The notes under the pieces: generated by a model
Told to the model about the DNA's origin: nothing
Seen by the model: the letters and a program-made list of their open reading frames with translations, nothing else
Databases searched by the model: none
IMG/VR virus record: IMGVR_UViG_3300027804_003127
Direction: 5' to 3' (one strand)
DNA length: 64,000 nucleotides
DNA from: a virus
Part shown: piece by piece, positions 1 through 13,673 of the stretch
Layout: each line of letters begins with the position of its first letter
Numbering within the stretch: position 1 is the stretch's first letter
Made by a program: the position numbers and the translations under genes

Positions 1-2
1 AC

Positions 3-476
3 ACGAAGTCGGCTCACAATCGACTGACCGAGGCGAAGCGCATTCTTGGCATCACCTGTGCTGCCTTTGATAAGGCAGACGAGGAGATGCAGGCTTTGAT
101 CGCAAAGACTCTCACCGACGCAGAGGTGAAGTCTTACTACGACAAGATCATGCCTTTCGAGCCTCTGCCTGTCATGTCTGTTGGACAGAGTGCAGATGCC
201 TACGAGAGCGCAGTCGAGAAGGTCGAGCGAGCCAATCGTAAGGTTGAGCGAGCGCGTGACTCTTGGATCGCAACGCTTGAGATGGAGCGTATCGCTCTTG
301 GAGGCGGTTCGCCTACTCTGTGGCTCGCCATGAACAGCGTCACCAAGTGGACGCAGCATGAGCGCACCGTGCGTGGCGAGTCTACCGACCCCACGATGCG
401 GCTGTGGAGCAACCGCTTCTCTGACGGCTACGACCGTACCAACGAAGCGCATGACATCGCTGTGGCGATGCTCTGA
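3..476 (+). CDS. DUF932-family protein, C-terminal part (5' truncated by window)
   Basis: The frame is open from the window start (TKSAHNRLTEAKRILG). The TLWLAMNSVTKWTQHER...RLWSNRF motif is typical of DUF932. Confidence 0.75.
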   Translation, partial: TKSAHNRLTEAKRILGITCAAFDKADEEMQALIAKTLTDAEVKSYYDKIMPFEPLPVMSVGQSADAYESAVEKVERANRKVERARDSWIATLEMERIALGGGSPTLWLAMNSVTKWTQHERTVRGESTDPTMRLWSNRFSDGYDRTNEAHDIAVAML

Positions 477-555
477 TAGGACGATGGGGGGGGAGGGGCG
501 CAAGCCTCTCCCCCTTCCCATTCCCGAATCCCGAAAACGGGAAAGGAGTTAGAGC

Positions 556-1203
556 ATGAGCAACGAATGGAACTACGAAGCGTGGTTCGCCTCGCCTGAA
601 GGCATGAAGGCTATCAAGTCGATTGGGGAGCGTCACGGTCTTGACTTGAGTGAGATCAATGATCCGCGACTGATTGCCTGCATTATCGTGAACGCTGTTC
701 CGCAGTCATCGGCTTGGTTGCCAAAGTCTCTTGTCAACAAGGATGACGAAAGGGACGCCAAGCAACTGCTTGGACAGTTGGCTGGCGACTATCCCGATGA
801 GAATGAGATGTGTGGATGGCTTGCCCTACTGAAGCATGGTGTGTCCGATGTGTCTGTTCCATACTACGGTGGCACAGATCAGATTGATCTTGGAGATGAC
901 TTCGCCTTCTCTACGATTCACGGTAATACTGTGGACTCCAACGCTATTCTTGATGACTTCAAGAATGCGTCTGGGTCAAGTCTAGAGGACTACTTTTGGA
1001 ACGCCATTGACGACTCTGGAGCGGGAGATGGCACAACTTACTCATCGACTTGGATTACTTGCTTGATTCCCGAGTTCTCGCAGCACACTACTGATCCCGT
1101 TTGGGACGAGAACGAGCCTGATGAGTACGATGACTTTGAGATGGACTCGCCTACTGAAACTCCGCTTGGGGAACAGTTAGACGAGAACAATCCAACTGAA
1201 TAA
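556..1203 (+). CDS. hypothetical protein with acidic C-terminus
   Basis: 215-aa ORF directly after repeat copy 1, with an AAGGAG SD. Confidence 0.8.
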   Translation: MSNEWNYEAWFASPEGMKAIKSIGERHGLDLSEINDPRLIACIIVNAVPQSSAWLPKSLVNKDDERDAKQLLGQLAGDYPDENEMCGWLALLKHGVSDVSVPYYGGTDQIDLGDDFAFSTIHGNTVDSNAILDDFKNASGSSLEDYFWNAIDDSGAGDGTTYSSTWITCLIPEFSQHTTDPVWDENEPDEYDDFEMDSPTETPLGEQLDENNPTE

Positions 1204-1278
1204 GACTTATCGGGGGCGGTGGTTTCGGATAGCCGAGCCACCGCTCCCGAATCCCGAAAACTGTAGGGAGGTTAGGGC

Positions 1279-1479
1279 ATGGCTGCGAACTGTCAAAGAT
1301 GTTGGAAAGAAGCCAACTGCACTCAAATGAGTTTCTTCAACACGCAAATGTGTTGCATGAAGTGCATTGAGGAAGAGCGGAAGCATCCGAAGTACGCAGA
1401 AGCCAAAGCCGCTGAAGAGGCTGCTTTGAAGGCTGGCAACTTCAACTTTCAAGGGATTGGATACCCAAGCAACCGATAG
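1279..1479 (+). CDS. small Cys-rich (CxxC...CxxC) phage protein
   Basis: CQRC...CCMKC, GGAGG SD, follows repeat copy 2. Confidence 0.75.
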   Translation: MAANCQRCWKEANCTQMSFFNTQMCCMKCIEEERKHPKYAEAKAAEEAALKAGNFNFQGIGYPSNR

Positions 1480-1487
1480 GAGCCGAT

Positions 1488-2012
1488 ATGCCTAACTGGT
1501 GTGAGAACAAACTGACGATCTACGGAACGAAGGAAGAGCGCGCAGCGATCCGCGAGGCGGTCAAGGGATGCGTGGTTTCTGAAACCGCAAATGGGCATTT
1601 CAATATTTTGCCGCAAGATTTTGCGCTAGATGCGATTGTTCCAATGCCTGACCATATGCGATCAAAAGAAGATCCGCGCTGGAAGCCCGCGCCTCCGATG
1701 ACTTCAGATGAACTTCTTGATTCTATCGCGCAGGATGGAAAAGAGGTCTTTCCTGACTGGTATATGTGGAGGACGAACAACTGGGGAACCAAGTGGGAGG
1801 TCACTAATCCCATCGTCGTAGAGGAAAAGTCGAGATTGGTCATTGACTTTGAGACTGCGTGGTGTTATCCTCTACCGTGCATCACAGCACTGTCGCGCAG
1901 GTTTCCGACAGTCAAAATGAAGATTGCCTTCTACGAACCTGGATGTATCGGTCGCGGGAGTGCAACTCTGTTGAACGGATTTGTTATCCGTGAAACAGGT
2001 GTTGGCGTCTAA
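1488..2012 (+). CDS. DUF1281/YubB-like ferredoxin-fold protein
   Basis: MPNWCEN start, WYxWRxNNWGTKW, FETAWxxP and FYEPG motifs. Confidence 0.8.
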   Translation: MPNWCENKLTIYGTKEERAAIREAVKGCVVSETANGHFNILPQDFALDAIVPMPDHMRSKEDPRWKPAPPMTSDELLDSIAQDGKEVFPDWYMWRTNNWGTKWEVTNPIVVEEKSRLVIDFETAWCYPLPCITALSRRFPTVKMKIAFYEPGCIGRGSATLLNGFVIRETGVGV

Positions 2013-2157
2013 TACAAGATCTTTTCCCCCATGCGCTCCCCCGCTTCGCAAGAGGTGGGGTGAGCGTTTTTTCATTGAGTCGCTCCCCGCTCCCGAATCC
2101 CGAAAACTGGAGCGGGGTTAGGTCATCAGCGGCACAGCCGCAGAAAGGCAGACGAAC

Positions 2158-2574
2158 ATGGCTTTGCATTTTGATCTGACGGGAATCAGCGATCACGAGA
2201 ACATCTGCTACTACAAGAATGATGGCAACTACCTGATGGAGCCGACCACCAAGACCATCATCTTCTACATGATGGCTATTGAGGTGAGCAAGATCACGGC
2301 AGACAACATTCCCGAGGTGTTTGCTCGCATCTCTACTCTTGAGAAGTTGCTTGGCACATCTCTCTCAAAGGGCTTTGACGAGAATGGAGTCAGGATTCCC
2401 GTCTACATCACGCTTGATGATGTCTGCAAGCATGAGGGACTGATTACGAACGCATCCAACAGTTCTCGCACCGAGTTCTTGAAGAAGTGCAAGGACTGGA
2501 TCAAGAGAGACATCGACGACATCTTCAGTCAGACCAAGAAGAAGTTGGTTGAAAAGACTGCTATCTCTGCATAA
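2158..2574 (+). CDS. hypothetical phage protein
   Basis: 138-aa ORF after the conserved leader. Confidence 0.8.
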   Translation: MALHFDLTGISDHENICYYKNDGNYLMEPTTKTIIFYMMAIEVSKITADNIPEVFARISTLEKLLGTSLSKGFDENGVRIPVYITLDDVCKHEGLITNASNSSRTEFLKKCKDWIKRDIDDIFSQTKKKLVEKTAISA

Positions 2575-2584
2575 AGGAAGCAAA

Positions 2585-2953
2585 ATGCGCCCAAATGGAT
2601 ACCTGCCTTTCGACAGCGTTGACGGCTTGAACTGGGGTCAAGGTCTGTTCAATGCGGACTTTTGGAACAAGATCCTGTCCACATTGGACGGAGACAATAC
2701 GAGCGAAGTCCGCGCAGCCGCGCGAATCGTAGCCGCCATTGGAGGGCAAGAGCCAAGTCTGCTGCCATTCAATATGCTTCTTGTTGCGTCGAACAAGTTG
2801 AGGACGATGGTTGCTGATGAAGATTACATCAAGTCTTTTGACGATCCGATTGCTGCTCGCTATTCGATCCAAATGGACATTGATTGGCTTTCTACGATCA
2901 ACGACTACGCGAGGATGAAGCGCAATGATTGCGTGGTGACGCCGCAATCTTGA
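2585..2953 (+). CDS. hypothetical protein
   Basis: ATG at 2585 with an AAGGA SD. Confidence 0.7.
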   Translation: MRPNGYLPFDSVDGLNWGQGLFNADFWNKILSTLDGDNTSEVRAAARIVAAIGGQEPSLLPFNMLLVASNKLRTMVADEDYIKSFDDPIAARYSIQMDIDWLSTINDYARMKRNDCVVTPQS

Positions 2954-3000
2954 TGATCGCCACGCCCCCGAAACCCGAAAACTGGAACGGGGTTAGGGCG

Positions 3001-3070
3001 TGGGCTGAACGAACCTTTCTGCGGCGGGGCGGGGCGACTCAATCGGCGGGTTGCCCCGCCCCTCCCTTTT
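3001..3070 (+). ncRNA. candidate small RNA antisense to the cassette leader/SD
   Basis: Follows repeat copy 4. AACCTTTCTGCGGC (3012-3025) is the reverse complement of the leader GCCGCAGAAAGGTT. It is followed by a 13-bp hairpin (3026-3062) and TCCCTTTT. Confidence 0.6.
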
Positions 3071-3080
3071 GGAGCAGCAA

Positions 3081-3290
3081 ATGAACGAAAAGAGCAAGGA
3101 ACTGCTAGATGCGCTTTCAATGGCGAACATCCATCGTCGTTGGGCTAACTTGTACGAGAGGGTGATAGAGAGTCATCCCGACAGCACGATCACCTGCTGC
3201 GAGTGCGGATACACGATCTTGGGAGATGATCCCGCGATCACCGTTGTCTGCCTTCCATGCTTTGAAAAGAAAAACGGAGAAGATCAATGA
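3081..3290 (+). CDS. small Zn-finger-like protein
   Basis: CCECG...CLPC, GGAG SD. Confidence 0.65.
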   Translation: MNEKSKELLDALSMANIHRRWANLYERVIESHPDSTITCCECGYTILGDDPAITVVCLPCFEKKNGEDQ

Positions 3291-3529
3291 AGGACTACAC
3301 GGACATCTACCTCATCGGAAAGAGCCTCACATCTATGGTTCACGAGATTGAGGCTCTTCGTTCTGAAGTGCAAGCACTAACTGCGGAGCGCAACAAGTAC
3401 GAGCGTCTTTACAACGCTGCTGCTCGCGACTGTGATCGCCTTCATCAGACTTGGTGCGCTCACATTATGAACGGCGAAGTCAAGTTCGCTGAACCTGTGA
3501 ATCCATCAAAGGTCAACGATCAGTTCTAG
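3287..3529 (+). CDS. hypothetical coiled-coil protein
   Basis: ATGA overlap with the upstream gene. Confidence 0.7.
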   Translation: MKDYTDIYLIGKSLTSMVHEIEALRSEVQALTAERNKYERLYNAAARDCDRLHQTWCAHIMNGEVKFAEPVNPSKVNDQF

Positions 3530-3599
3530 CACCGCTCCCGAAACCCGAAAACTGGAGCGTGGTTAGGGCATGAGCGGCACAGCCGCAGAAGGGAATGTC

Positions 3600-3743
3600 A
3601 TGGAAGTCACCTTGACCTACTGTTTGATAGGTTCCAACATGGCGGTACTGCTTGCCTTCCTTTACGAGAAGCGCAACTTCCGTCTTACAAAGCGCGCCTC
3701 AAGTCGAAAGCGCGCGCCAAAGCGCAAGGAGGACGGCAAGTGA
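3600..3743 (+). CDS. 47-aa membrane peptide with basic tail (not in ORF track)
   Basis: MEVTLTYCLIGSNMAVLLAFLYEKRNFRLTKR..., directly after the conserved leader. Confidence 0.65.
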   Translation: MEVTLTYCLIGSNMAVLLAFLYEKRNFRLTKRASSRKRAPKRKEDGK

Positions 3744-3898
3744 GCAACGCATTTGACTGGTTGGCAGAGCAGGCAGACAGACTCATGGAGATGTTCGTGA
3801 TGCTGTACCTGTTGGCAGTATGCGCATTTGCATTCCTGTCCATCCCGTTCTCGCTGGCATTGATCGCCTTCGCATTGATGAATGGAGGTACATCGTGA
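3740..3898 (+). CDS. 52-aa hydrophobic peptide (not in ORF track)
   Basis: GTGA coupling, AAGGAGG SD, long hydrophobic stretch. Confidence 0.6.
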   Translation: MSNAFDWLAEQADRLMEMFVMLYLLAVCAFAFLSIPFSLALIAFALMNGGTS

Positions 3899-4131
3899 AA
3901 GACACAGACATCATTGCGGCGATTGCGCCCGATGCAGTATCGCTGATGGACAAGGCAATCGCGGAGATCAAGCGACTGCGGCAGGAGAACGCAACCCTCA
4001 CCGCCGAGCGCGATGAGGCGAGGCGGGAACTTTGCCGCATCGAAAGTAGTGCATCAGGAGATCCAAACATGACGAGCCGTGCCGTTGCAGCGGATTGTGG
4101 TTGGGACTGCTTCAAGGAGGACGGCAAGTGA
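3895..4131 (+). CDS. hypothetical coiled-coil protein
   Basis: GTGA coupling, GGAGG SD. Confidence 0.65.
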   Translation: MKDTDIIAAIAPDAVSLMDKAIAEIKRLRQENATLTAERDEARRELCRIESSASGDPNMTSRAVAADCGWDCFKEDGK

Positions 4132-4499
4132 GCGACAAGCAGGCGGCGTGGATCGACCGCCTTGTGGATGAGGCGAAGAATCCCGTCGAGATTCCCGACC
4201 TGACTCCGATCATTGAGGCTTTCAAGACTACCTCTGTGAAGTTCCCCAAGATCAAGGGAGTCATTGACGGTACTGAAGTCGTGATCTCGTGGACTGCGCC
4301 TGATTCGGCGCATCCGAAGGTCAAGGACGAGAACCGTGGCACTTGCGCGATCAATACGGGCAAGTACGGCGACCCGAACGCGAAGTTCTACGGTCGCATC
4401 AAGACAGACGGATCGCTTGCCGCAGGTCGTGACCTGAACGCAGCGGTTGTGTCTTGGCTGAAGGAAGTTGCGGAGAATCCGCAGCCGCAGGGCAAGTGA
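4128..4499 (+). CDS. hypothetical protein, N-terminally shorter paralog of 11036..11509
   Basis: Shares WIDRL.DEA.NP, FPKI.G..DG.E, GRI..DGS...GRDL and VAENPQP.GK with that ORF. Confidence 0.8.
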   Translation: MSDKQAAWIDRLVDEAKNPVEIPDLTPIIEAFKTTSVKFPKIKGVIDGTEVVISWTAPDSAHPKVKDENRGTCAINTGKYGDPNAKFYGRIKTDGSLAAGRDLNAAVVSWLKEVAENPQPQGK

Positions 4500-4574
4500 C
4501 CGAACAAGGGTAGGGAGGGGAGCGATCCTCTCCCTACCCGCATTGTTTCCGAATCACGAAAACGGGGGACAAAA

Positions 4575-4889
4575 ATGACTCTTGAATGCAATCAGTTCTT
4601 CATTGACATCATTGAGAAGGAGCATCATCCCGTGTGCTGCTATGTCATCACGGCATACGATGTCATGGTTGAGTTGAATGTGACGGAGGAAGTTGCTTCC
4701 GTCATTGTCGAGAGGATGCGGGAGTCAAATGACGCCGTGTGGCAGTCCATTTGGCGTGATGCACACTTTGAGTACGATCAAATCAAGGCTCAAGACCCGC
4801 TTCTTGAGTTGATTGACACGGTAAGGGACTCCCCGCCCCCGAATCCCGAAAACGGGGAAGCGGTTAGCGAGTCGGGGAAGATCAAGTAG
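4575..4889 (+). CDS. hypothetical protein (C-terminus reads through a repeat copy)
   Basis: ORF track; its PPNPENG segment is the translated repeat. Confidence 0.6.
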   Translation: MTLECNQFFIDIIEKEHHPVCCYVITAYDVMVELNVTEEVASVIVERMRESNDAVWQSIWRDAHFEYDQIKAQDPLLELIDTVRDSPPPNPENGEAVSESGKIK

Positions 4890-5045
4890 CGTATTCGCGG
4901 CGGCGAATACACCCTCCCAAGTTGCGTGGTGGCTTGGGGTCTGGAGGGCTAAACACCTGTGCAATCCCGTAATGAGCCGCAGCGGGATAAGATAAAGGCT
5001 CCCATGCCTGTTGGCGGTATCCCGTCATCAGGCATTTCCATTGAC
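4870..5045 (+). ncRNA. candidate structured RNA cassette (four hairpins)
   Basis: No SD-led ORF between repeat copies 7 and 8. Stems at 4891-4910, 4912-4948, 4964-4988 and 5004-5035. Confidence 0.55.
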
Positions 5046-5124
5046 AAGGCTCCCCGCTCCCGAATCCCGAAAACTGGATCGGGGTTATGTCATCAGCGGC
5101 AAAGCCGCAGAAAGGCAGATAGAC

Positions 5125-5496
5125 ATGGCTGACAAGAAGATGCTGAAGATCGGCGCGAACGGCAAGATCGAGGTGGTCGCCTACACGGGATACGAGTCTC
5201 TGCGCGATGGCGTTGGCGGCTACATCGAGTGCATCAGTCTCTCTGATACTGTTTCTCTGTGGTGTAACGAGAACGGCAAGTTGGACGGACTGCCACCGAA
5301 TATGTTTGCCACCATGCTGTTCGCAGAGGTCTTTGGCAATGCAGACATCATCGTTGGCGATTGCTGCGTTCTAGGTGGAGTCGATGAGGAAGGCGAGAGC
5401 CTGGAATGTCCGCAGGATGTCATCGACAAGGTGAAGCGTTGGGCTGATAAGTTGCAGCCCATGTGGGTGGTGAGCGGAGCGGGCGGACGCGAGTGA
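5125..5496 (+). CDS. DUF3846-family protein
   Basis: LRDGVGGYIE, LWCNENGKLDGLPPN and IIVGDC motifs. Confidence 0.8.
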   Translation: MADKKMLKIGANGKIEVVAYTGYESLRDGVGGYIECISLSDTVSLWCNENGKLDGLPPNMFATMLFAEVFGNADIIVGDCCVLGGVDEEGESLECPQDVIDKVKRWADKLQPMWVVSGAGGRE

Positions 5497-5565
5497 GGCG
5501 CGCCCCCGAATCCCGAAAACTGGAATGAAGTTAGGGTGTAGCGAGAACACTCGCAGAAAGGACAG

Positions 5566-5973
5566 ATGATGCAGACGACGAATATCGCGCTAGATGTCAA
5601 GTCGAGTGCAGCCGCCGCAATCGTGAAGGAGATCGTTGAGCCTACCGAGGGCTTTACGAGCGGCAAGATCACGGTGGAGTTTGACTTCACCTGCGACAAG
5701 GGTGCAGACGAGACTTACACGGCTGTGCAGGAACTTTGCCCGTGGACTCTCGTGGCAGTCCTCATGTCGAAGATCAATGGAGTCACGCAGGATGTCGTTC
5801 TCGACATGATCCCCGAGATCATGGCTATGTCCGACAAGCAGCGCAAGGTGCTGCGCGAGACTCTCAAGGACACCACCACGCAGCGTCTTGAGGAGATGGG
5901 TGCGATGGTGCAGAAGGTGCGCGCTGGCAAGTGCCGTATCGAAGTGATCGGCTCTGCTACCGTGCAGAAGTAG
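5566..5973 (+). CDS. hypothetical protein
   Basis: 135-aa ORF after the conserved leader. Confidence 0.8.
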   Translation: MMQTTNIALDVKSSAAAAIVKEIVEPTEGFTSGKITVEFDFTCDKGADETYTAVQELCPWTLVAVLMSKINGVTQDVVLDMIPEIMAMSDKQRKVLRETLKDTTTQRLEEMGAMVQKVRAGKCRIEVIGSATVQK

Positions 5974-6063
5974 GACGAAAGATGGGGGAGGGGAGAAATC
6001 CTCTCCCCCGTCTTATTCCCGAAACCCGAAAACTGGAACGAAGTTAGGTCACAGGAGGCAACC

Positions 6064-6240
6064 ATGCGAATCCGAGAGTGTACCTGCGATAGTGGGGAAT
6101 GGGGTACTGAACAGTACGATGCAAGGGGTATCTACCTCTGCATTACCTGTCCCGAGTGTCACGATAAGAAGATGTCCGCTTATCGTCCTGAAGTCCTCAC
6201 AGACTCTAACTACGAGTGTTGTGAGGACATTGAACCGTAA
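6064..6240 (+). CDS. 58-aa Cys-rich protein (not in ORF track)
   Basis: MRIRECTCDSGE...YDARGIYLCITCPECH..., AGGAGG SD. Confidence 0.75.
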   Translation: MRIRECTCDSGEWGTEQYDARGIYLCITCPECHDKKMSAYRPEVLTDSNYECCEDIEP

Positions 6241-6318
6241 GGCTCCCCGTCCCCGAAACCCGAAAACGGGGAAGCAGTTAGGTCATCAGCGGGGCAATCC
6301 CGCAGAAAGGACAGACGC

Positions 6319-6600
6319 ATGAGTTTCTACGCAAGCGACACGGGATGGGCAATCTCGTACAAGAACGGATGGTCGGTGTCCGTCAAGTTCAGCGAATCCC
6401 ACTATTCGGCGCAAGCCGCAGGAAAGTGGGTCAGCGCAGAAGTCGCGGTCTTTAGACCGAACGGCGACTTCTATCCCTTGACGGAGGATGACGATGTCAA
6501 GGGATGGCAGACTCCCGAAGAGGTCACGCAGATCATGCTGTGGGCTGAAAGTCAGCCCAATAGCAGCGGTGACTACAAGGTGGAATCTGTGTCCTACTGA
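6319..6600 (+). CDS. hypothetical phage protein
   Basis: NGWSVSV...AEVAV...DDVKGWQTPEEV pattern; follows the leader. Confidence 0.75.
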   Translation: MSFYASDTGWAISYKNGWSVSVKFSESHYSAQAAGKWVSAEVAVFRPNGDFYPLTEDDDVKGWQTPEEVTQIMLWAESQPNSSGDYKVESVSY

Positions 6601-6716
6601 ATACTGAAGGGGGGAAGGCGAAGCCTTCCCCCCTTCACCCCCCCGCCGCCCCCGAATCCCGAAAACTGGAGCGGGGTTAGGGTGTGGCGAGAACACTCGC
6701 AGAAAGGTTGGCGCAG

Positions 6717-6908
6717 ATGCACATTCAGTTGTTTGCCAAGAAGGACTGCAAGTTGTGCAAGGGCAAGGGCGAAGTTCAGGAACCGCACGGTGAGGTTCTT
6801 GACTGCGACTGCATCTACGATCAGTCTGCTTACACGGATGAGCAGATTGACGAGGCAATCGCGAAGGGTACGATTGAGATTGTTTCAGCCTACTGGGAGG
6901 GCAAATGA
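6717..6908 (+). CDS. small Zn-ribbon-like protein
   Basis: CKLCKGKG...CDC; ATG after the AGAAAGG leader. Confidence 0.7.
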   Translation: MHIQLFAKKDCKLCKGKGEVQEPHGEVLDCDCIYDQSAYTDEQIDEAIAKGTIEIVSAYWEGK

Positions 6909-7216
6909 GCGAATACAACGGATGGAGTAGCCGCGCCACATGGAACATCGTCCTGTGGCTGACCAACGACGAGCGCGCTTACAACGCCGCTCGCGCTCGC
7001 ATCGGTGCTTTCGAGCAGCCGTTGAGCAAGGGTGACGCGCGACACATCGTGCAGTTCGCTCTTGGTCACATGACGCCCGATGGCGTCAAGACAAGCGATC
7101 CGACGATCTCTTGGGAAGAGATCCTTGAGACTTTGATCGAACTCTCCCCGAATCCCGAAAACGGGAGCGGGGTTGTGTCATCAGCGGCACAGCCGCAGAA
7201 GGGCAGCAACACATGA
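6905..7216 (+). CDS. conserved phage hypothetical protein (YNGW..TW..LW..NDE type); reads through a repeat
   Basis: N-terminal motif and ATGA coupling. Confidence 0.75.
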   Translation: MSEYNGWSSRATWNIVLWLTNDERAYNAARARIGAFEQPLSKGDARHIVQFALGHMTPDGVKTSDPTISWEEILETLIELSPNPENGSGVVSSAAQPQKGSNT

Positions 7217-7437
7217 GCGGAACTAGGACGATCACGAAGCGGTGCGTTCAGACGGGGAAGAACTACAGCGTCACCGTTGACGATGACGCATTCTTCAGGT
7301 GGGTCAACGGGGAACTCGCGCAGCGAGCGTTCCCGAACATGAATCCAGCCGATAGGGAGTTTCTCATCAGCGGAATCTCTCCCGAAGGTTGGCAGCAAAT
7401 CTTTGGAGACAAGGAAGAGGCAGATACGGGGGCGTAA
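7213..7437 (+). CDS. conserved phage hypothetical protein
   Basis: Q.AFP.M...DREFLISGI.PE.W motif; follows the leader. Confidence 0.75.
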   Translation: MSGTRTITKRCVQTGKNYSVTVDDDAFFRWVNGELAQRAFPNMNPADREFLISGISPEGWQQIFGDKEEADTGA

Positions 7438-7500
7438 GCCCCCGTTGTCTGCCTCCCGAATCCCGAAAACTGTAACGAAGTTAGGTCACAGGAGGCAACC

Positions 7501-7731
7501 ATGCGTAATCCCAAGAACGGACTGTGGGTAGTGACCTTTCATCAGGAGCATTGCTACGAGAGCGATGCCGCTACTGAATGGGGCGATGATGTCCCGTACA
7601 TCGAGAGCATTGTTGTGGACGCGAATAGCGATCACGATGCTCGCAAGAAGGCGAAGAACGCAATCGTTGCATACGGGAAGATCACGATTGTGAGCGCGTT
7701 CCCGATGACCTCAATCTTCCATCGCGCATAA
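7501..7731 (+). CDS. hypothetical protein
   Basis: AGGAGG SD; leader identical to that of 6064. Confidence 0.7.
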   Translation: MRNPKNGLWVVTFHQEHCYESDAATEWGDDVPYIESIVVDANSDHDARKKAKNAIVAYGKITIVSAFPMTSIFHRA

Positions 7732-7828
7732 AAAACGCGGGAATCAATAGAGCACCGCCCCCGAATCCAGAAAACTGGAGCGGGGTTAGGGTGTAAGCGG
7801 GGCAATCCCGCAGAAAGGCAGACTGAAC

Positions 7829-8239
7829 ATGAGTTATGGAGAAGATCGTCCTCTTGTTGGTATCAAGGGCATCGTGATCGCAGCATCCATCATCATTTCG
7901 TGCATCGGTGGGTGTACGATTGGCTATCCTCACTACAAGGTGTGGAGCGCCACGATGGATGGCGAAGCAGAGTACGCTCAAGCCGAGCAGAACCGCAGAA
8001 TCGCGGTTCTTGAAGCCGAAGCGGAACTACAGTCGGCAAAGGCACTTGCCGCTGCGGAAGTCGAGCGAGCGAAGGGTGTTGCTGAAGCCAACGCCATCAT
8101 TGGACAGAGCCTCAAGGACAACGAAGCGTACCTGCGCTGGCAGTGGATCAAGAACCTCGAAAGCGGTTCTAATAGCGTGATCTATGTTCCTACAGAAGCG
8201 GGGCTTCCCATCCTTGAAGCGGGGAAGCGAGACAAGTAA
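7829..8239 (+). CDS. membrane-anchored coiled-coil protein (SPFH/band-7 C-terminal-like)
   Basis: N-terminal TM segment, EVERAKGVAEANAII...YLRW and VIYVPTEAGLPILEA. Confidence 0.7.
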   Translation: MSYGEDRPLVGIKGIVIAASIIISCIGGCTIGYPHYKVWSATMDGEAEYAQAEQNRRIAVLEAEAELQSAKALAAAEVERAKGVAEANAIIGQSLKDNEAYLRWQWIKNLESGSNSVIYVPTEAGLPILEAGKRDK

Positions 8240-8364
8240 CCTTTCCGAAGAGGGCGCGCTCCACAGGGGGTGCGCCCTCTTTGTTTCGACGCCAGCCCCC
8301 GAATCCCGAAAACGGGAGCGGGGTTAGGGTGTAAGCGGGGCAATCCCGCAGAAAGGACAGACGC

Positions 8365-8673
8365 ATGAAGGAAGTCAGTCTTTCAGAGCGTCCCGCTGAT
8401 TACAGCGCGGACAACGGCAAGGGTGCGCCAACCCATGTCCAACTCAAGTCCACGAAGCGGTGGGTCAAGACTCCCGAGGGCTACCATCGTCGCCCAGAGG
8501 GATGGATGAGTCACATCTACTACAGGTGTGAGGATGGATACGAATGGATCGAGACTCCAAGCATCGACTTGCTTGAGGAATGGCAGTCGGATTGCGTGTG
8601 TGAGACTCCAACGGGTGAGATGGTCGAGCCTGACCATCCCCGTTCATGGTTGTTCATCCTGGGACTCATCTAA
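8365..8673 (+). CDS. hypothetical phage protein
   Basis: C-terminal VEPD...SWL..LGLI motif; follows the leader. Confidence 0.75.
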   Translation: MKEVSLSERPADYSADNGKGAPTHVQLKSTKRWVKTPEGYHRRPEGWMSHIYYRCEDGYEWIETPSIDLLEEWQSDCVCETPTGEMVEPDHPRSWLFILGLI

Positions 8674-8719
8674 ACGAGCAATGTGCGGGGGGAGGGAGCG
8701 CTACCTCTCCCCGCACGAG

Positions 8720-8777
8720 ACTGAAGCGCACCGCACCGTGCCGCACCGCGCTACTGAAGCGCACCGCACCGTGCCGC
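8720..8777 (+). repeat. 25-bp direct repeat x2 (ACTGAAGCGCACCGCACCGTGCCGC)
   Basis: Copies at 8720-8744 and 8753-8777. Confidence 0.9.
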
Positions 8778-8867
8778 GCAAATGAAACGCCCCTCGCTCC
8801 CGAAACCAGAAAACGGGAGCGAGGGGCATACTCTTTAGCAACATAGTTGCTGGAAAGGTGGAGAGTA

Positions 8868-9095
8868 ATGGACGAATACGATGACTTCATCATCGGACCT
8901 CAATGCGAAGAGTTGTCCATCTATGTTGGCTACAACATCATGGACGAGGACGCTTGTGAGATTGATTGGTGCGTCGATTGTTGCGACGACGACGACGACG
9001 ACGACCATGACGACGACCATGATGGCGACCATGACGCGCCAAACCCACAATCCCCGCCCCCGAATCCCGAAAACGGGAGCGGGGTTAGGGTGTAA
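8868..9095 (+). CDS. very acidic Asp/His/Cys-rich small protein
   Basis: A GAC-repeat tract encodes DDDDDDDHDDDHDGDHD. Confidence 0.6.
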   Translation: MDEYDDFIIGPQCEELSIYVGYNIMDEDACEIDWCVDCCDDDDDDDHDDDHDGDHDAPNPQSPPPNPENGSGVRV

Positions 9096-9125
9096 GCGGG
9101 ACAATCCCGCAGAAAGGTTGGTGCG

Positions 9126-9449
9126 ATGACTCAAGCAGAACTCATCGCGAAGGTAGGGTTCGGATGTGGTGGTGATCGTGAAGAAATCCTGTTCCGTGCA
9201 GGGTATCGTCCGATCAGGTGGTCGCCGTTCAACCGCGACACGAAGGAGTTTGTGTCGTGGACGCGACTCGACCGCTCCGCAGAGGAAGAGGGAATCGCCT
9301 TCTGGCGTTCGCGCGAACTGCGGTCAGGATCGCGCCACTACCTTTCCACCTCCGATGCCACCATGCGTGGCGAGGACGGAAGTGGATGGACGCGCACCCG
9401 CGCTCTGCGGAACGCAGATGCGCTCCGATGGGAACGCGCAAGTCGGTGA
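9126..9449 (+). CDS. hypothetical protein, paralog of 12188..12469
   Basis: Shares GFGC.GD..E...RAG.R.IR.SPF and FVSWTRLD. Confidence 0.8.
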   Translation: MTQAELIAKVGFGCGGDREEILFRAGYRPIRWSPFNRDTKEFVSWTRLDRSAEEEGIAFWRSRELRSGSRHYLSTSDATMRGEDGSGWTRTRALRNADALRWERASR

Positions 9450-9537
9450 ACAGCAATAGGGGGGAAGGGAGAGGCGAAGCCTCTCCCTTCCCCCCTCTCT
9501 TCCGAAACCCGAAAACGGGGAAAGAAAAGGAAAAACC

Positions 9538-9702
9538 ATGAAAACAATCTTCTTGCTTACGATCACCCTGCTCGCCGCATTCGCATTCAACGCTGGCATC
9601 ATGTGGTGCTGCGTTGAACTGTTCGGATGGAATCCCGCGATCATCGCTGGCGTGGTGGGAATGGGTCATGCTGCGAATGCTCTTGTGAAGAAACCAAAGT
9701 AG
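9538..9702 (+). CDS. 54-aa membrane peptide (not in ORF track)
   Basis: MKTIFLLTITLLAAFAFNAGIMWCC..., AAGGA SD. Confidence 0.65.
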   Translation: MKTIFLLTITLLAAFAFNAGIMWCCVELFGWNPAIIAGVVGMGHAANALVKKPK

Positions 9703-9794
9703 CACCGCACACCGCACACCGCACACCGCCCCCGAAACCCGAAAACTGGGACGCGGTTAGAGCGTAAGCGGCACAGCCGCAGAAAGGTGGTTCG

Positions 9795-9959
9795 ATGAAC
9801 AAGGGAATCCAAGACCAAGCGCGTCGAGCCAAAACGCTGGCTTGGCAGCGTGCGCGCGACATTCGCGCTGCGGGACGCATTGCGCGACCCGCTACTTGGG
9901 GCGGCAAGCCAACCGCCAAAGAGTCTCGCCGCGCATGGAATCAGCGCGGAGAGCATTGA
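9795..9959 (+). CDS. 54-aa Arg/Ala-rich basic peptide (not in ORF track)
   Basis: MNKGIQDQARRAKTLAWQRARDIR..., after the leader. Confidence 0.65.
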   Translation: MNKGIQDQARRAKTLAWQRARDIRAAGRIARPATWGGKPTAKESRRAWNQRGEH

Positions 9960-10036
9960 AGCACTCCAGCCCCCGAATCCCGAAAACTGGAACGGGGTTA
10001 GGGCATCAGCGGCACAGCCGCAGAAAGGTTGCGAAC

Positions 10037-10423
10037 ATGAGCATCAGCGCATGTCACATCAGCCGTGACGAGAATGAGGTCGCAGCGGAAATCGCCGCTG
10101 CAACGGCGAACATCCTCGCGGATTCGTCCGCTTGGATCGTCCTGACCCAAGTGATGGAGAACTACGGCGCCCATGCTTGGGATGGCAAGGGTGAGTGTCC
10201 GCAGTATTGGAAGGCGAAGGGCGGCAACGAGTATATCGTTCGCGGTTGCCGCACACACATCGAGGCTATGAGTCTCGTCGCCTCGCGCATGAGCAACAAC
10301 CATGCGTGGAGGGAGTTCCCCGTTGGCTCGCTCGAGCCTGCGGAGTGGATCAAGGACATCGAGGACTACGATGCGTCCTACAAGGCGCATCTCTTGAAGG
10401 GGATTCAAGAGATCAAGCGATAA
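10037..10423 (+). CDS. conserved phage hypothetical protein
   Basis: ENYGAHAWDGKGECPQYWKAKGG motif. Confidence 0.8.
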   Translation: MSISACHISRDENEVAAEIAAATANILADSSAWIVLTQVMENYGAHAWDGKGECPQYWKAKGGNEYIVRGCRTHIEAMSLVASRMSNNHAWREFPVGSLEPAEWIKDIEDYDASYKAHLLKGIQEIKR

Positions 10424-10553
10424 CCTTTCCGAAGAGGGCGCGCTCCGCAAGGGGTGCGCCCTCTTTGTTTCGTTGCTCTTCCCGCTCCCGAAACCCGAAA
10501 ACTGGAGCGGGGTTAGGGCGTAAGCGGCACAGCCGCTAGAAAGGTTGACGAAC

Positions 10554-10676
10554 ATGGAAACTGTGCTCCAAGTCTGTTCGTGGATCGTCCTCACGGGCGT
10601 TGCCATGATTTGGCCAGGGTTTGCCCTAGTTTGTCTCGACTACATCGTTCAAGGGTTGAGGCGGCACAGCCGCTAG
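10554..10676 (+). CDS. 40-aa membrane peptide (not in ORF track)
   Basis: METVLQVCSWIVLTGVAMIWPGFALVCLDY..., after the leader. Confidence 0.6.
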   Translation: METVLQVCSWIVLTGVAMIWPGFALVCLDYIVQGLRRHSR

Positions 10677-10690
10677 AAAGGTTGACGAAC

Positions 10691-10876
10691 ATGGATGAGA
10701 AGATTCGTGAACTGACGGATCAAGTGCAAAAACTCCTGAAGGAGAATGAAGATCTCCGAGGGGGAGTCGATGAGAGAGTCTGTGACCTTGTTGATGAGAA
10801 CAAGGATCTCAAGAGACAACTTGAGAAGGCGCGTATTGAGCGCGACCTACTCATGCGGATCGTGAAAGGCGCGTAG
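10691..10876 (+). CDS. small coiled-coil protein
   Basis: Heptad pattern; preceded by a duplicated leader. Confidence 0.7.
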   Translation: MDEKIRELTDQVQKLLKENEDLRGGVDERVCDLVDENKDLKRQLEKARIERDLLMRIVKGA

Positions 10877-11035
10877 TACGCGCGCATACTACACGCTCCC
10901 GAATCCCGAAAACTTTGCGGCTCGACTTGCATCGGTCGCGCCGTGCATTGCACGAAACACTCCAACCCCCGAATCCAGAAAACTGGAGCGGGGTTAGAGC
11001 ACAAGCGGGACAATCCCGCAGAAAGGCAGATCAAC

Positions 11036-11509
11036 ATGGACAAGAACAAGCAGATTCAGGGACTCGCATCCGTCATCGCAACGAACCCCGCTCGCGCGGA
11101 GTTCGCGTCGTCGCTGCTCGCCGCGCTCGTCAAGGGCAGCGCGTCGGAGAAGCAGGTCGAGTGGATCGACCGCCTCATTGACGAGGCGCAGAACCCTGCG
11201 CCCGTGGTTGGCGATCTCGCCGCTCTCATCGAGGCGTTCCGCGCCTCGAAGGATCGGTTCCCCAAGATTCGGGGAACGGTTGACGGGATCGAGTGGACGA
11301 TCTCGTACACGCCCCGCGACAGCGCGAAGGCGAAGCCCGAGAATTGCGACACTTGCAACATCGCATCGGGCAAGTTCGGGCAACCAGACAATCGGTTCGC
11401 GGGGCGCATCCTCGCGGACGGGAGTTTCAAGGGGGGACGCGACCTGACCCCCGCAGTCGCGGAGTGGATCAAGTCGGTTGCGGAGAACCCGCAGCCGAAG
11501 GGCAAGTAA
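11036..11509 (+). CDS. hypothetical protein, paralog of 4128..4499
   Basis: Direct sequence similarity; follows the leader. Confidence 0.8.
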   Translation: MDKNKQIQGLASVIATNPARAEFASSLLAALVKGSASEKQVEWIDRLIDEAQNPAPVVGDLAALIEAFRASKDRFPKIRGTVDGIEWTISYTPRDSAKAKPENCDTCNIASGKFGQPDNRFAGRILADGSFKGGRDLTPAVAEWIKSVAENPQPKGK

Positions 11510-11631
11510 ATCGCAGGGGGCGCGCTCCACAAGGGCGCGCCCCTATCTGCGTTTCAATCCCCGCTCCCGAATCCCGAAAACTGGAGCGGAGTTAGAGCGT
11601 AAGCGGCACAGCCGCAGAAAGGTTGGCGCAG

Positions 11632-11865
11632 ATGAAGGGACAGAACATGACGCTCGCCCAGCGCATCGCTTGGGCGAAGCAACTCAAGGCGCGCGAGGCG
11701 AACGCTCGCGCCGAGGCGGAGGCGCGCGCAGCGCGCATCGCACAGCAGCGCGAGGTCGCTGCGTCGGTCGCCGCCCACACCTATCAGGGTGGGTCGGGCG
11801 ACTCGCTGGGGTTCCTCATGCACCTCGCAGGGGTGCAGGGGGCGTCCTCGAACGCCCATCGCTAA
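11632..11865 (+). CDS. Ala/Arg-rich helical protein
   Basis: ORF after the leader. Confidence 0.65.
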   Translation: MKGQNMTLAQRIAWAKQLKAREANARAEAEARAARIAQQREVAASVAAHTYQGGSGDSLGFLMHLAGVQGASSNAHR

Positions 11866-11954
11866 CCGCAGGGGGGCGCGCTCCACAAGGGCGCGCCCCT
11901 ATCTGCGTTTCTCTCCCCGCTCCCGAATCCCGAAAACGGTAGCGGGGTTAGAGC

Positions 11955-12062
11955 AGTAGCGGCAAGTGTCGTTCGCAGGTAGAAGCGCGCCCCTAGACGC
12001 GCAGCACGCTACAGCGAACGGCAGGGTTCAGCGTGAACCTTGTGCCGTCAAACATAAACGCC
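11955..12062 (+). ncRNA. candidate three-way-junction RNA cassette
   Basis: No SD-led ORF between repeat copy 26 and the next hairpin. Stems 11959-64/12043-48, 11967-76/12014-23 and 12024-30/12034-40. Confidence 0.55.
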
Positions 12063-12187
12063 GCAAGGGGGCGCGCTCCGCAAGGGGCGCGCCCCTATCT
12101 GCGTTTCTCTCCCCGCTCCCGAATCCCGAAAACGGTAGCGGGGTTAGAGCACAAGCGGGACAATCCCGCAGAAAGGTTGGTGCGCCC

Positions 12188-12469
12188 ATGAAGAGCGCAC
12201 ACGAACTGACCAGCCGAATGGGATTCGGCTGCAACGGCGACCACCGAGAGGTCGCCTATCGCGCGGGCGTCCGCGCGATCCGCCTCTCCCCGTTCGATGA
12301 CGGGGAGGGTACGCCGATCCACGATTTCGTGTCGTGGACGAGGCTCGACTCCCTCGCCGCGAGCGAGGGAGAGGCAGTAGCCTCCGCTTGGCGCATCCGC
12401 GCCGAGCGGGGTGACGGCACGCGCCAAGCCGTGCCAACAATCTTCGGCAAGTTGCCGAAGGGCAAGTAA
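12188..12469 (+). CDS. hypothetical protein, paralog of 9126..9449
   Basis: Direct sequence similarity and the same leader subtype. Confidence 0.8.
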   Translation: MKSAHELTSRMGFGCNGDHREVAYRAGVRAIRLSPFDDGEGTPIHDFVSWTRLDSLAASEGEAVASAWRIRAERGDGTRQAVPTIFGKLPKGK

Positions 12470-12592
12470 ATCGCAGGGGGCGCGCTCCACAGGGGGCGCG
12501 CCCCTATTCTGCGTTTCTACTCCCGCTCCCGAATCACGAAAACTGGAGCGCGGTTAGAGCGCAAGCGGCACAGCCGCTAGAAAGGACAGAAC

Positions 12593-12835
12593 ATGACTGA
12601 AAAGGTTGAATGGACGCGCGAACGCGCGATCGCGCTGCTCTCGATGATCGAGAGCAACCACCCCGACCTGTCTGAAAAGACGGGTTGGGAAGATGAGAAC
12701 TGTCAGGTCGCCTATGTGGGCGGCCTGTTGTGGGCAGCCGCCCACGATGAGGCTGACCTCGACGGCCTCAAGTCGCGCCTCGCGCGCGCGCAGGCCGCAC
12801 GCGCCGCAAGGCGAGCGCGGTACGCAAACTGCTAA
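12593..12835 (+). CDS. hypothetical protein
   Basis: ORF after the leader. Confidence 0.7.
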   Translation: MTEKVEWTRERAIALLSMIESNHPDLSEKTGWEDENCQVAYVGGLLWAAAHDEADLDGLKSRLARAQAARAARRARYANC

Positions 12836-12957
12836 CAGCAAAGGGACGCATCCCACAAGGGTGCGTCCCTTTGCTGCGTTTCAACCCCCGCTCCCGAATC
12901 CAGAAAACTGGAGCGCGGTTAGAGCACAAGCGGCACAGCCGCTAGAAAGGTGGTTCG

Positions 12958-13326
12958 ATGGAAGTTGTGATTGTCACGCGCCACGCGGCGCTGGTGCAGG
13001 TCCTCGCAGAGGACCATGGAATCACGGGTCGCGTCGTGGAGCACGCGCTCCCGACCGACGTGATCGGAAACATCGTCATCGGCGTGCTGCCGATGCACTT
13101 GGCTGCGAAGGCAGCCAAGGTCGGGACGCTCGTCCTCGACCTCCCCGCAGATTTGCGGGGAAAGGAGTTGACTGCCGCCGAAGTGCGGCAGTATACCACG
13201 AACCTTGAGTGGTTCGTGGTGAGGACGGAGGTCCAGCAGCAGTGGCTGCTGGACGACAGCAATCAGGCTGGCCTGCAGGGTTCGCTAGGTCGACTGGCGC
13301 AGGACATGGCTCCTGCGTCGGTGTGA
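12958..13326 (+). CDS. csx16: Csx16-like (Cas_VVA1548 family) protein, putative ring nuclease
   Basis: VTRH, VVEH, VIGVLPMHLAA and LDLPADLRGKELTAAE match the Csx16 pattern SRH...VIGTLPVHLAA...L.LP...RG.EL. Confidence 0.7.
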   Translation: MEVVIVTRHAALVQVLAEDHGITGRVVEHALPTDVIGNIVIGVLPMHLAAKAAKVGTLVLDLPADLRGKELTAAEVRQYTTNLEWFVVRTEVQQQWLLDDSNQAGLQGSLGRLAQDMAPASV

Positions 13327-13375
13327 GAATAGGGGCGCGCTCCACAGGGGGCGCGCCCCTATTCTGCGTTTGTTT
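13327..13375 (+). terminator. GC-rich hairpin family closing cassettes (last copy)
   Basis: GAATAGGGGCGCGCTCC-ACAG-GGGGCGCGCCCCTATTC followed by TGCGTTTGTTT. Related copies at about 8247, 10431, 11513, 11868, 12063, 12473 and 12837. Confidence 0.75.
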
Positions 13376-13673
13376 GGATGCGTCCAAACCAGCAGCGTCA
13401 ACTTGACCCAAGCGAGAGAAACGTTTAAACGCATACCCCCCACCTGGGGGTCTTTTTATAGGTAAAAACTGGCTGCTGGGGGATACCTTACGGGCTTCTG
13501 CGTTTGTTGTAATTTATGATGGATAAAAAAAAGGGGGGGTGTGAAAATTGAAATTTTTAATTATGAAGAAAAGGGATACCTTGGTGAATTGGGGTATTAA
13601 TGACATTATGAATTGATAGAAGGCGTTTAGCAGGTAATGCAATGATATGTAAATAACAAGGAGTAATGAGCTC

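What the first reader, a model, noticed from the sequence alone, without database searches (positions are those of the whole stretch)
3001..3070. One cassette encodes a small RNA antisense to the shared leader/SD of the other cassettes
Seen: after repeat copy 4 the usual leader is replaced by AACCTTTCTGCGGC (3012-3025), then a 13-bp hairpin and TCCCTTTT. This 14-mer is the exact reverse complement of GCCGCAGAAAGGTT at 10017-10030 and 11611-11624. It matches 13 nt at 9107-9119 and 12166-12178. It covers the CGCAGAAAGG core in 13 leaders, plus two AGAAGGG leaders via G-U pairing. Four leaders (10554, 10691, 12593, 12958) have an inserted T (GCCGCTAGAAAGG) that would bulge. Inference: a single trans-acting sRNA of about 65 nt occludes the Shine-Dalgarno of most cassettes. 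It would act as a built-in master off-switch or timer for the array and would explain why the leader is conserved.
Basis: partly seen in the sequence, partly recalled or inferred. Interest (0 to 1): 0.9.

Follow-up and report, generated by a model that had tools for sequence, protein, structure and literature searches.

The report
Phage RNA antisense to shared leaders
A large uncultured freshwater phage keeps one short, conserved RNA element that is the mirror-image complement of the ribosome-binding leader shared by 18 of its clustered small genes; in a relative whose leaders changed, a matching element changed with them, so one RNA probably dampens many of the phage's own messages, though no such transcript has yet been seen.

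Summary
In an array of 29 promoter-headed cassettes, 3012-3025 is the only reverse-complement copy of the leader core. It lies single-stranded before a 15-bp hairpin and pairs 8-14 nt across the Shine-Dalgarno of 18 cassettes.

Six related lineages (71-91% marker-protein identity) each keep exactly one copy of the seed directly 5' of a strong hairpin, although promoter repeat, hairpin and upstream gene changed. The base next to the seed covaries with the leaders. A seventh lineage lost the leader motif and the seed, and has one element complementary to its own new motif.

Best reading: a trans-acting antisense RNA that blocks translation of the leadered class of the phage's early mRNAs (0.65).

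'Master off-switch' is overstated. Eleven cassettes are not targets, one promoter faces 18, a promoter-less operon follows the hairpin, two lineages match only a few leaders, and the RNA data show only a low-depth contig spanning the element, no discrete RNA.

It works like P1 C4 or RsaE but belongs to neither family. This scan noted the same design, unchecked, in four other phages. Cluster K mycobacteriophages have a published single inverted start-associated sequence.

The parts
2968..2999 (+). Copy of the array's promoter-like repeat that would drive the RNA; inferred +1 is G3000
   Evidence: A start codon sits exactly 32 nt from the motif start in leaderless cassettes (5 in this lineage, 6-8 in each of four others; 33 nt in 12 cassettes of lineage G), and the inferred +1 is a purine in 30 of 33 copies. 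It is not a sigma-70 consensus. Promoter function is inferred.
3000..3070 (+). Candidate antisense RNA, about 71 nt (also the 5' leader of the downstream operon)
   Evidence: Fold z = -2.96, with the 5' arm unpaired in the centroid structure. Conserved in lineages B and C. No Rfam family.
3012..3025 (+). Seed complementary to the leader-hairpin 3' strand plus Shine-Dalgarno; the 10-nt core 3014-3023 is invariant in seven lineages
3026..3070 (+). 15-bp GC-rich hairpin and short T-tract (leaky terminator or 3' stabiliser)
   Evidence: In 7 variants 99% of cells pair, with four one-sided pair-keeping changes and no two-sided change. The T-tract is 4 here and 5-7 in lineages B and C.
3071..3529 (+). 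GGAG site and promoter-less downstream ORFs (69 aa, 80 aa) that need read-through of the hairpin
   Evidence: The 69-aa ORF is conserved in L024 at 46% identity. An RNA-library contig spans 2721-3367.
2125..2160 (+). Example target leader (5' hairpin, Shine-Dalgarno, spacer, ATG). The other 17 promoter-headed targets have inferred starts at 3570, 5092, 5538, 6285, 6684, 7180, 7793, 8331, 9092, 9764, 10005, 10520, 11001, 11599, 12151, 12561, 12926
   Evidence: 8-14 contiguous pairs including G-U, start codon mostly 7-11 nt after the motif. Computed binding -9.7 to -16.8 kcal/mol.
10005..10039 (+). Best-matched target leader (14 Watson-Crick pairs)
11599..11634 (+). Second 14-pair target leader
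524..13326 (+). Cassette array: 29 co-oriented promoter-like repeats with small ORFs and ORF-less slots
   Evidence: None on the minus strand or beyond position 13000.

Best explanation
The element is a base-pairing regulatory RNA that acts in trans on the phage's own early mRNAs. SHOWN IN SEQUENCE: one antisense seed per genome, directly 5' of a strong hairpin, complementary to the translation-start region shared by the leadered cassettes, conserved, and tracking the leaders across lineages. INFERRED: it is transcribed from the same promoter repeat as its targets and ends at, or is trimmed back to, the hairpin, giving a stable RNA of about 70 nt, while read-through expresses the operon behind it. 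Its anti-Shine-Dalgarno bases dock on the open Shine-Dalgarno as a toehold. The GC end of the seed then displaces the 5-bp hairpin at the mRNA 5' end, which blocks 30S loading and removes 5' protection. Because repressor and targets share a promoter, this is an incoherent feed-forward loop: targets are translated first, then damped or cleared as the stable RNA accumulates. Leaderless and GGAG-led cassettes escape; T-insert leaders bind at the weaker end of the range. It is a class-selective damper, not a master switch. In lineages D-G the seed sits in a 3' UTR, so there the RNA would be an mRNA end or a processed 3' fragment.
For: Unique antisense copy. Binding -9.7 to -16.8 kcal/mol for the 18 leaders, against -3.7 to -8.1 for the other cassettes and a median of -4.7 for 74 ORF starts outside the array, none of which has the 7-nt core; 0 of 1000 shuffled 5' arms did as well. 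The seed is invariant in B and C, where the upstream 1.1 kb is 67-70% identical. In D1, D2, E and F the promoter repeat and hairpin are different, yet the seed persists once, 5' of a hairpin, behind non-homologous ORFs in D1 and D2. Only four non-coding 10-mers are common to all six arrays tested: two are the leader core and one is its antisense. Flank covariation: the base after the core is T in 13 of 27 A/B leaders, where the element has A, and A in 27 of 30 D-F leaders, where the element has T. Lineage G has 0 old cores, 0 old seeds, 8 copies of a new motif over the start codon and 1 antisense copy 5' of a hairpin; that seed pairs at least 9 nt with 6 of 13 own leaders and 0 of 91 leaders of the other lineages.
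Against: No discrete RNA: the only RNA-library contig over it runs through it at depth 4.3, and contigs cannot show ends or strand. In E and F most leaders carry a variant core and the seed did not follow; at least 9 pairs with only 4 of 15 and 2 of 15 leaders, 7-8 with many of the rest. One promoter against 18. E and F have no T-tract after the hairpin. The flank covariation and the G switch are one event each on the tree. The G seed resembles T-rich terminator tails found elsewhere in that array. Host and chaperone are unknown.
Confidence: 0.65

Rival explanations
1. The RNA is a general anti-Shine-Dalgarno mimic aimed mainly at host mRNAs. Its core copies the 3' end of 16S rRNA, and the phage leaders match only because they use the host's optimal site.
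For: The core equals the 16S 3'-terminal bases of many phyla (own knowledge; the host was not identified). The seed stays fixed in E and F, where most phage leaders drifted.
Against: Pairing extends 3-5 nt beyond the Shine-Dalgarno into the phage-specific leader hairpin. In lineage G the element matches the phage's spacer and start codon rather than a Shine-Dalgarno. The phage would silence 18 of its own genes as a side effect.
Confidence: 0.12
2. It is a cis element: an attenuator or leader controlling read-through into the promoter-less genes behind the hairpin. The seed either pairs with the hairpin's 5' arm as an antiterminator, or senses sibling mRNAs.
For: Promoter-less ORFs follow in A, B, C, E and F. 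In D and E the seed can form a 7-bp alternative hairpin with the 5' arm (-6.6 kcal/mol). RNA spans the element.
Against: The seed did not covary with the hairpin when the hairpin was replaced. The alternative is far weaker than the main stem (-22 to -39 kcal/mol). In D and G a new promoter copy follows at once, so there is nothing to attenuate.
Confidence: 0.1
3. The motif is a DNA operator for a phage repressor, and this copy is simply inverted.
For: In the window the inverted copy lies at +13 to +26 from the inferred start, the same distance as the sense copies.
Against: In D-G the inverted copy lies about 45 to 350 nt upstream of the next promoter copy, with no fixed spacing, but always abuts a hairpin. 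There is always exactly one inverted copy. Sense copies keep Shine-Dalgarno spacing to the start codon.
Confidence: 0.08
4. A neutral relic of a local inversion of a leader, or a chance terminator flank.
For: Complementarity to 11606-11631 extends to 26 nt at 81%, so origin by inversion is plausible. Two other window terminators (8238, 10422) have a similar pyrimidine flank.
Against: Retained letter for letter across lineages 71% identical in the marker protein, while promoter, hairpin and neighbouring genes turned over. The expected number of chance 9-mer hits 5' of any strong hairpin is about 0.001 per array.
Confidence: 0.05

Closest known systems
C4 antisense RNA of phages P1 and P7 (as described in PMC5320573)
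   Same: Phage RNA of about the same size (77 nt), derived from a longer transcript, acting on the phage's own mRNA. One part occludes the ribosome-binding site and an adjacent part gives specificity.
   Different: C4 is a three-stem structure cut out by RNase P, with loop-displayed a' and b' elements, serving lysogenic immunity at one operon. Here there is a linear seed plus one hairpin, 18 separate targets, and no Rfam match.
RsaE/RoxS anti-Shine-Dalgarno sRNAs of Firmicutes (PMC6158497)
   Same: A conserved single-stranded anti-SD-like motif that pairs with the Shine-Dalgarno of several mRNAs.
   Different: These are host metabolic regulators with duplicated C-rich motifs and unrelated targets. 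Here the targets are the phage's own standardised leaders, made from the same promoter repeat. No sequence family match.
Start-associated sequences (SAS) of Cluster K mycobacteriophages (PMC3203893)
   Same: A 13-bp asymmetric repeat at the ribosome-binding site of many non-structural genes. Four K1 genomes carry a single copy in the opposite orientation, not at a gene start. The authors left open whether an RNA or a protein binds it.
   Different: Unrelated sequence and phages, and no antisense RNA was proposed in the passages read. In Anaya the inverted copy is predicted in a hairpin loop rather than 5' of a hairpin (fold z only -1.4).
PeSL promoter/stem-loop cassettes of T4-type phages (PMC2839356)
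   Same: Repeated promoter + stem-loop + Shine-Dalgarno + start units flanking small variable genes. This fits the array as a whole.
   Different: PeSLs use sigma-70-like boxes, and that paper does not mention antisense or small RNA.
[quoted passage not shown]
   Same: Short structured RNAs released from leaders by premature termination in large lytic phages.
   Different: No shared-leader target was named in the passages read.

Membership tests
C4 antisense RNA (P1/P7) | Match to the Rfam covariance model; three-stem fold | tested here: not met
   No hit at the gathering score in the window; no C4 hit at E up to 5 in 1-13600. Single hairpin.
C4 antisense RNA (P1/P7) | RNase P processing from a precursor | not testable with these tools
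   No RNA end data. The 5' end coincides with the inferred start site, so no 5' cut is needed.
C4 antisense RNA (P1/P7) | Occludes the ribosome-binding site of the phage's own mRNA, with a neighbouring specificity segment | tested here: met
   In silico only.
Trans-encoded base-pairing sRNA (class) | Locus separate from its targets, with short complementarity over translation-start regions | tested here: met
Trans-encoded base-pairing sRNA (class) | Conserved, single-stranded seed 5' of a terminal hairpin | tested here: met
   Part of the seed is weakly paired in the ensemble.
Trans-encoded base-pairing sRNA (class) | Exists as a discrete transcript | tested here: inconclusive
   Only assembled contigs of four freshwater metatranscriptomes were available; one spans the element at depth 4.3.
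Trans-encoded base-pairing sRNA (class) | Represses targets in a pairing-dependent way; chaperone dependence | not testable with these tools
   Needs reporters or toeprinting.
RsaE/RoxS family | Sequence and structure homology, duplicated C-rich motifs | tested here: not met
   No Rfam hit; a single motif.
Cluster K SAS | The 13-bp SAS consensus | tested here: not met
   Different sequence.
Cluster K SAS | Many same-orientation copies at gene starts plus one inverted copy not at a start | tested here: met
   13 sense cores and 1 inverted here; 15 sense and 1 inverted in Anaya 30000-60835.
PeSL cassettes (for the array) | Sigma-70-like -35 and -10 boxes | tested here: not met
   6 hits against 4.7 expected in 1-13600, none at the repeats.
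PeSL cassettes (for the array) | Repeat + stem-loop + Shine-Dalgarno + start codon flanking variable small genes | tested here: met

The most novel reading that the evidence does not exclude
Phages with cassette arrays use a standardised leader as an address tag and keep one co-evolving antisense RNA to switch down that whole class of their own genes: an RNA-only regulon whose seed is rewritten when the tag changes and which can move between a 3' UTR and its own promoter. The same logic would explain the single inverted start-associated sequence of Cluster K mycobacteriophages.
Probability: 0.45. Interest if true: 0.85.

Novelty: new variant of a known kind. Interest (0 to 1): 0.72.

Why it matters
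How large lytic phages turn down dozens of strong early genes is mostly explained by proteins. A single RNA addressed to a shared leader would be a protein-free way to do it, and it would give a reason why phage leaders are conserved beyond what ribosome binding needs. That question was left open for Cluster K start-associated sequences in 2011 (PMC3203893). The natural variants found here supply ready-made swap experiments, and phage Anaya offers a cultured system in which the general idea can be tested.

Tried and rejected
- No whole genome is held for the window.
- Rfam: nothing at the gathering score, only chance microRNA-type hits by E-value.
- Minus-strand reading (hairpin, then Shine-Dalgarno, then ORF): no start codon in A or B, ORFs of 23-107 codons with different starts elsewhere, and no promoter repeat on that strand; rejected.
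- Promoter-plus-seed scan of viral contigs gave six unrelated loci without arrays; the seed-plus-hairpin scan gave none.
- IMG/VR relative G001 ends exactly at the cassette; ENA contigs filled the gap.
- Host search failed: no cultured relative, best DUF932 hit 26%, nothing in GTDB contigs, no tRNAs.
- RNA runs X4-X6 hold small shares and are no evidence; depth figures from contigs do not rank expression.
- L062 (distant homologue) has a different repeat and no comparable leaders.
- A second antisense 9-mer in lineage E (L082:16360) looks like a terminator tail and was not counted.
- The pair count on the hairpin shows no two-sided change, so it supports the stem only weakly.
- Literature searches found no described phage RNA that targets a leader shared by many of the phage's own genes; the library lacks most subscription papers.

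Full report
SETTING. The window is part of a large uncultured phage: helicase and ribonucleotide reductase genes lie downstream, RNA holders are freshwater samples, and relatives lie on contigs up to 406 kb. Bases 524-13326 hold 29 co-oriented copies of a repeat, each heading a small gene block or an ORF-less slot. The repeat behaves as a promoter. In six lineages a start codon falls at one fixed distance from it (32 nt, 33 in lineage G) in the leaderless cassettes, and that position is a purine in about nine of ten copies. It is not sigma-70-like. This places +1 of the cassette in question at G3000. Promoter function is inferred, not measured.

OBSERVATION. All stated matches are present. The antisense 10-mer is unique in 64 kb. 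Nine matches at up to two mismatches compare with 0.36 expected. The RNA 3000-3070 folds into a mostly open 5' arm, a 15-bp hairpin and a four-T tail (z -2.96).

TARGET SET. Eighteen promoter-headed leaders pair 8-14 nt with the seed, G-U included; a nineteenth motif, at 10669, has no promoter copy. The pairing runs across the 3' strand of their 5' hairpin and the purine run that mostly lies 7-11 nt before the start codon. Computed binding is -9.7 to -16.8 kcal/mol. The other cassettes give -3.7 to -8.1, and 74 ORF starts outside the array give a median of -4.7; none of the 74 has the core, though three reach below -11. None of 1000 shuffled 5' arms matched the observed mean duplex energy. In four of five cofolds the leader hairpin is opened; in a T-insert leader it stays shut and only the Shine-Dalgarno is covered.

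CLOSE RELATIVES. Same-species contigs carry the RNA sequence unchanged. Lineages B and C (DUF932 marker 91% identical, upstream DNA 67-70%) keep the cassette. The seed and most of the hairpin are invariant, stem changes keep pairing in 99% of cells but are one-sided, and the tail is 5-7 T. Lineage B changed the promoter repeat in all copies, and both lineages lack the gene upstream, yet seed and leaders stayed.

DISTANT RELATIVES. Lineages D1, D2, E and F (71-72%) have unrelated-looking promoter repeats. Each still has exactly one antisense seed, now just after a stop codon and directly 5' of a different hairpin. In D1 and D2 the ORFs before it are not homologous. Of all non-coding 10-mers, four are shared by the six arrays A, B, D1, D2, E and F: two are the leader core, one is its antisense, and one is a hairpin arm. 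The base next to the core covaries. It is T in 13 of 27 A/B leaders against an A in the element, and A in 27 of 30 D-F leaders against a T in the element. In A, B, D1, D2 and G the top-scoring antisense 9-mer of the array is this element (null P 0.007, 0.013-0.07, 0.003, 0.03, at most 0.003). These values are not independent across A-D.

THE SWITCH IN LINEAGE G. Lineage G (67%) has no old leader core and no old seed. Its leaders share a new motif over the spacer and start codon (8 copies). One reverse-complement copy sits right after a stop codon and 5' of a strong hairpin. That seed pairs at least 9 nt with 6 of 13 own leaders (three of the 13 are ORF-less stubs) and with 0 of 91 leaders of the other lineages. 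D-F seeds pair with 0 of 13 G leaders; A and B seeds pair with 3 of 13. It is a single event in near-identical strains, and part of the G seed resembles T-rich tails found after other hairpins in that array.

WHAT COUNTS AGAINST. In E and F most leaders carry a variant core and the seed did not follow: 4 of 15 and 2 of 15 pair at 9 nt or more, many of the others at 7-8. E and F have no T-tract after the hairpin, and promoter-less genes follow in A, B, C, E and F, so the hairpin is at best a leaky terminator or a 3' stabiliser. Four freshwater metatranscriptomes hold pieces of the array. One contig spans 2721-3367 at depth 4.3, which fits read-through or DNA, and contigs cannot show a 70-nt RNA. 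One promoter copy must supply RNA against 18 target promoters, so full silencing needs the RNA to be much more stable than its targets, or to act after early transcription falls.

MECHANISM. Most likely (0.65), the element is a trans-acting antisense RNA. It is co-transcribed with its targets, accumulates because of its 3' hairpin, docks on the open Shine-Dalgarno, unzips the 5' hairpin and blocks ribosome loading. That would give a delayed, class-selective shut-down of leadered early genes while leaderless and GGAG-led ones continue. Complementarity, uniqueness, conservation and covariation are shown. Transcription, stability, repression and timing are inferred. Rivals: an anti-Shine-Dalgarno mimic aimed at host mRNAs (0.12), a cis attenuator for the downstream operon (0.10), an inverted DNA operator (0.08), a neutral relic (0.05).

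COMPARISON. It works like P1/P7 C4 (PMC5320573) and like the anti-SD motifs of RsaE (PMC6158497), but matches neither family. The array resembles PeSL regions of T4-type phages (PMC2839356), for which no antisense copy is mentioned. The closest published pattern is the Cluster K start-associated sequence: many sense copies at gene starts and one inverted copy of unknown meaning (PMC3203893). In Anaya I found 15 sense copies and one inverted copy at about 59870, in an intergenic stretch, predicted in a 10-nt hairpin loop. This is one genome with a weak fold score, so it is a lead only. Earlier unchecked notes of this scan report the same design in four other phage genomes. They are not evidence for this case, but they mean the design is not unique to this DNA.

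VERDICT. A real, conserved element, and probably a multi-target antisense RNA against the phage's own shared leader. New variant of a known kind. Interest 0.72.

Noticed in passing
window 4870-5045: ORF-less structured cassette, conserved in lineage B, with no Rfam match. A related copy gave a contig at depth 285 over 4912-5007 in RNA run X3, far above other contigs laid on the array; it may come from another organism or relative.
   Followed up: partly
window 8238-8246 and 10422-10430: Two terminators have a short pyrimidine flank right after the stop codon that is complementary to 8 nt of the Shine-Dalgarno region, the same stop-seed-hairpin layout as in lineages D-G. Possibly weaker secondary copies.
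   Followed up: partly
L101 (phage Anaya JF704106) about 59870-59882: The single inverted start-associated sequence is predicted to be displayed in a 10-nt hairpin loop in an intergenic region; a candidate antisense RNA in a cultured phage.
   Followed up: partly
L051:6357-6395 and L059:13844-13880: In lineage B some leaders extend complementarity by a second helix of 5-7 pairs, between the spacer before the start codon and the 5' part of the RNA (read).
   Followed up: no
arrays of window, L052, L087, L081, L082, L085, L090: The promoter repeat was replaced across all 25-30 copies in each lineage (concerted change), while gene order and the distance to the start site stayed the same.
   Followed up: partly
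window 12958-13326: The last cassette encodes a Cas_VVA1548 (PF09652) protein, E 6.6e-17; also present in lineage F arrays.
   Followed up: partly
window 11955-12110 and 10915-10965: Two further ORF-less slots behind promoter copies; the first is absent from the close strain L004.
   Followed up: no
L082:16360: A second antisense 9-mer at the end of the lineage E array matches the variant leader core that the main seed misses; it may be only a terminator tail.
   Followed up: no
window 10652-10695: A leader duplicated inside the array without a promoter copy, heading the ORF at 10691.
   Followed up: no
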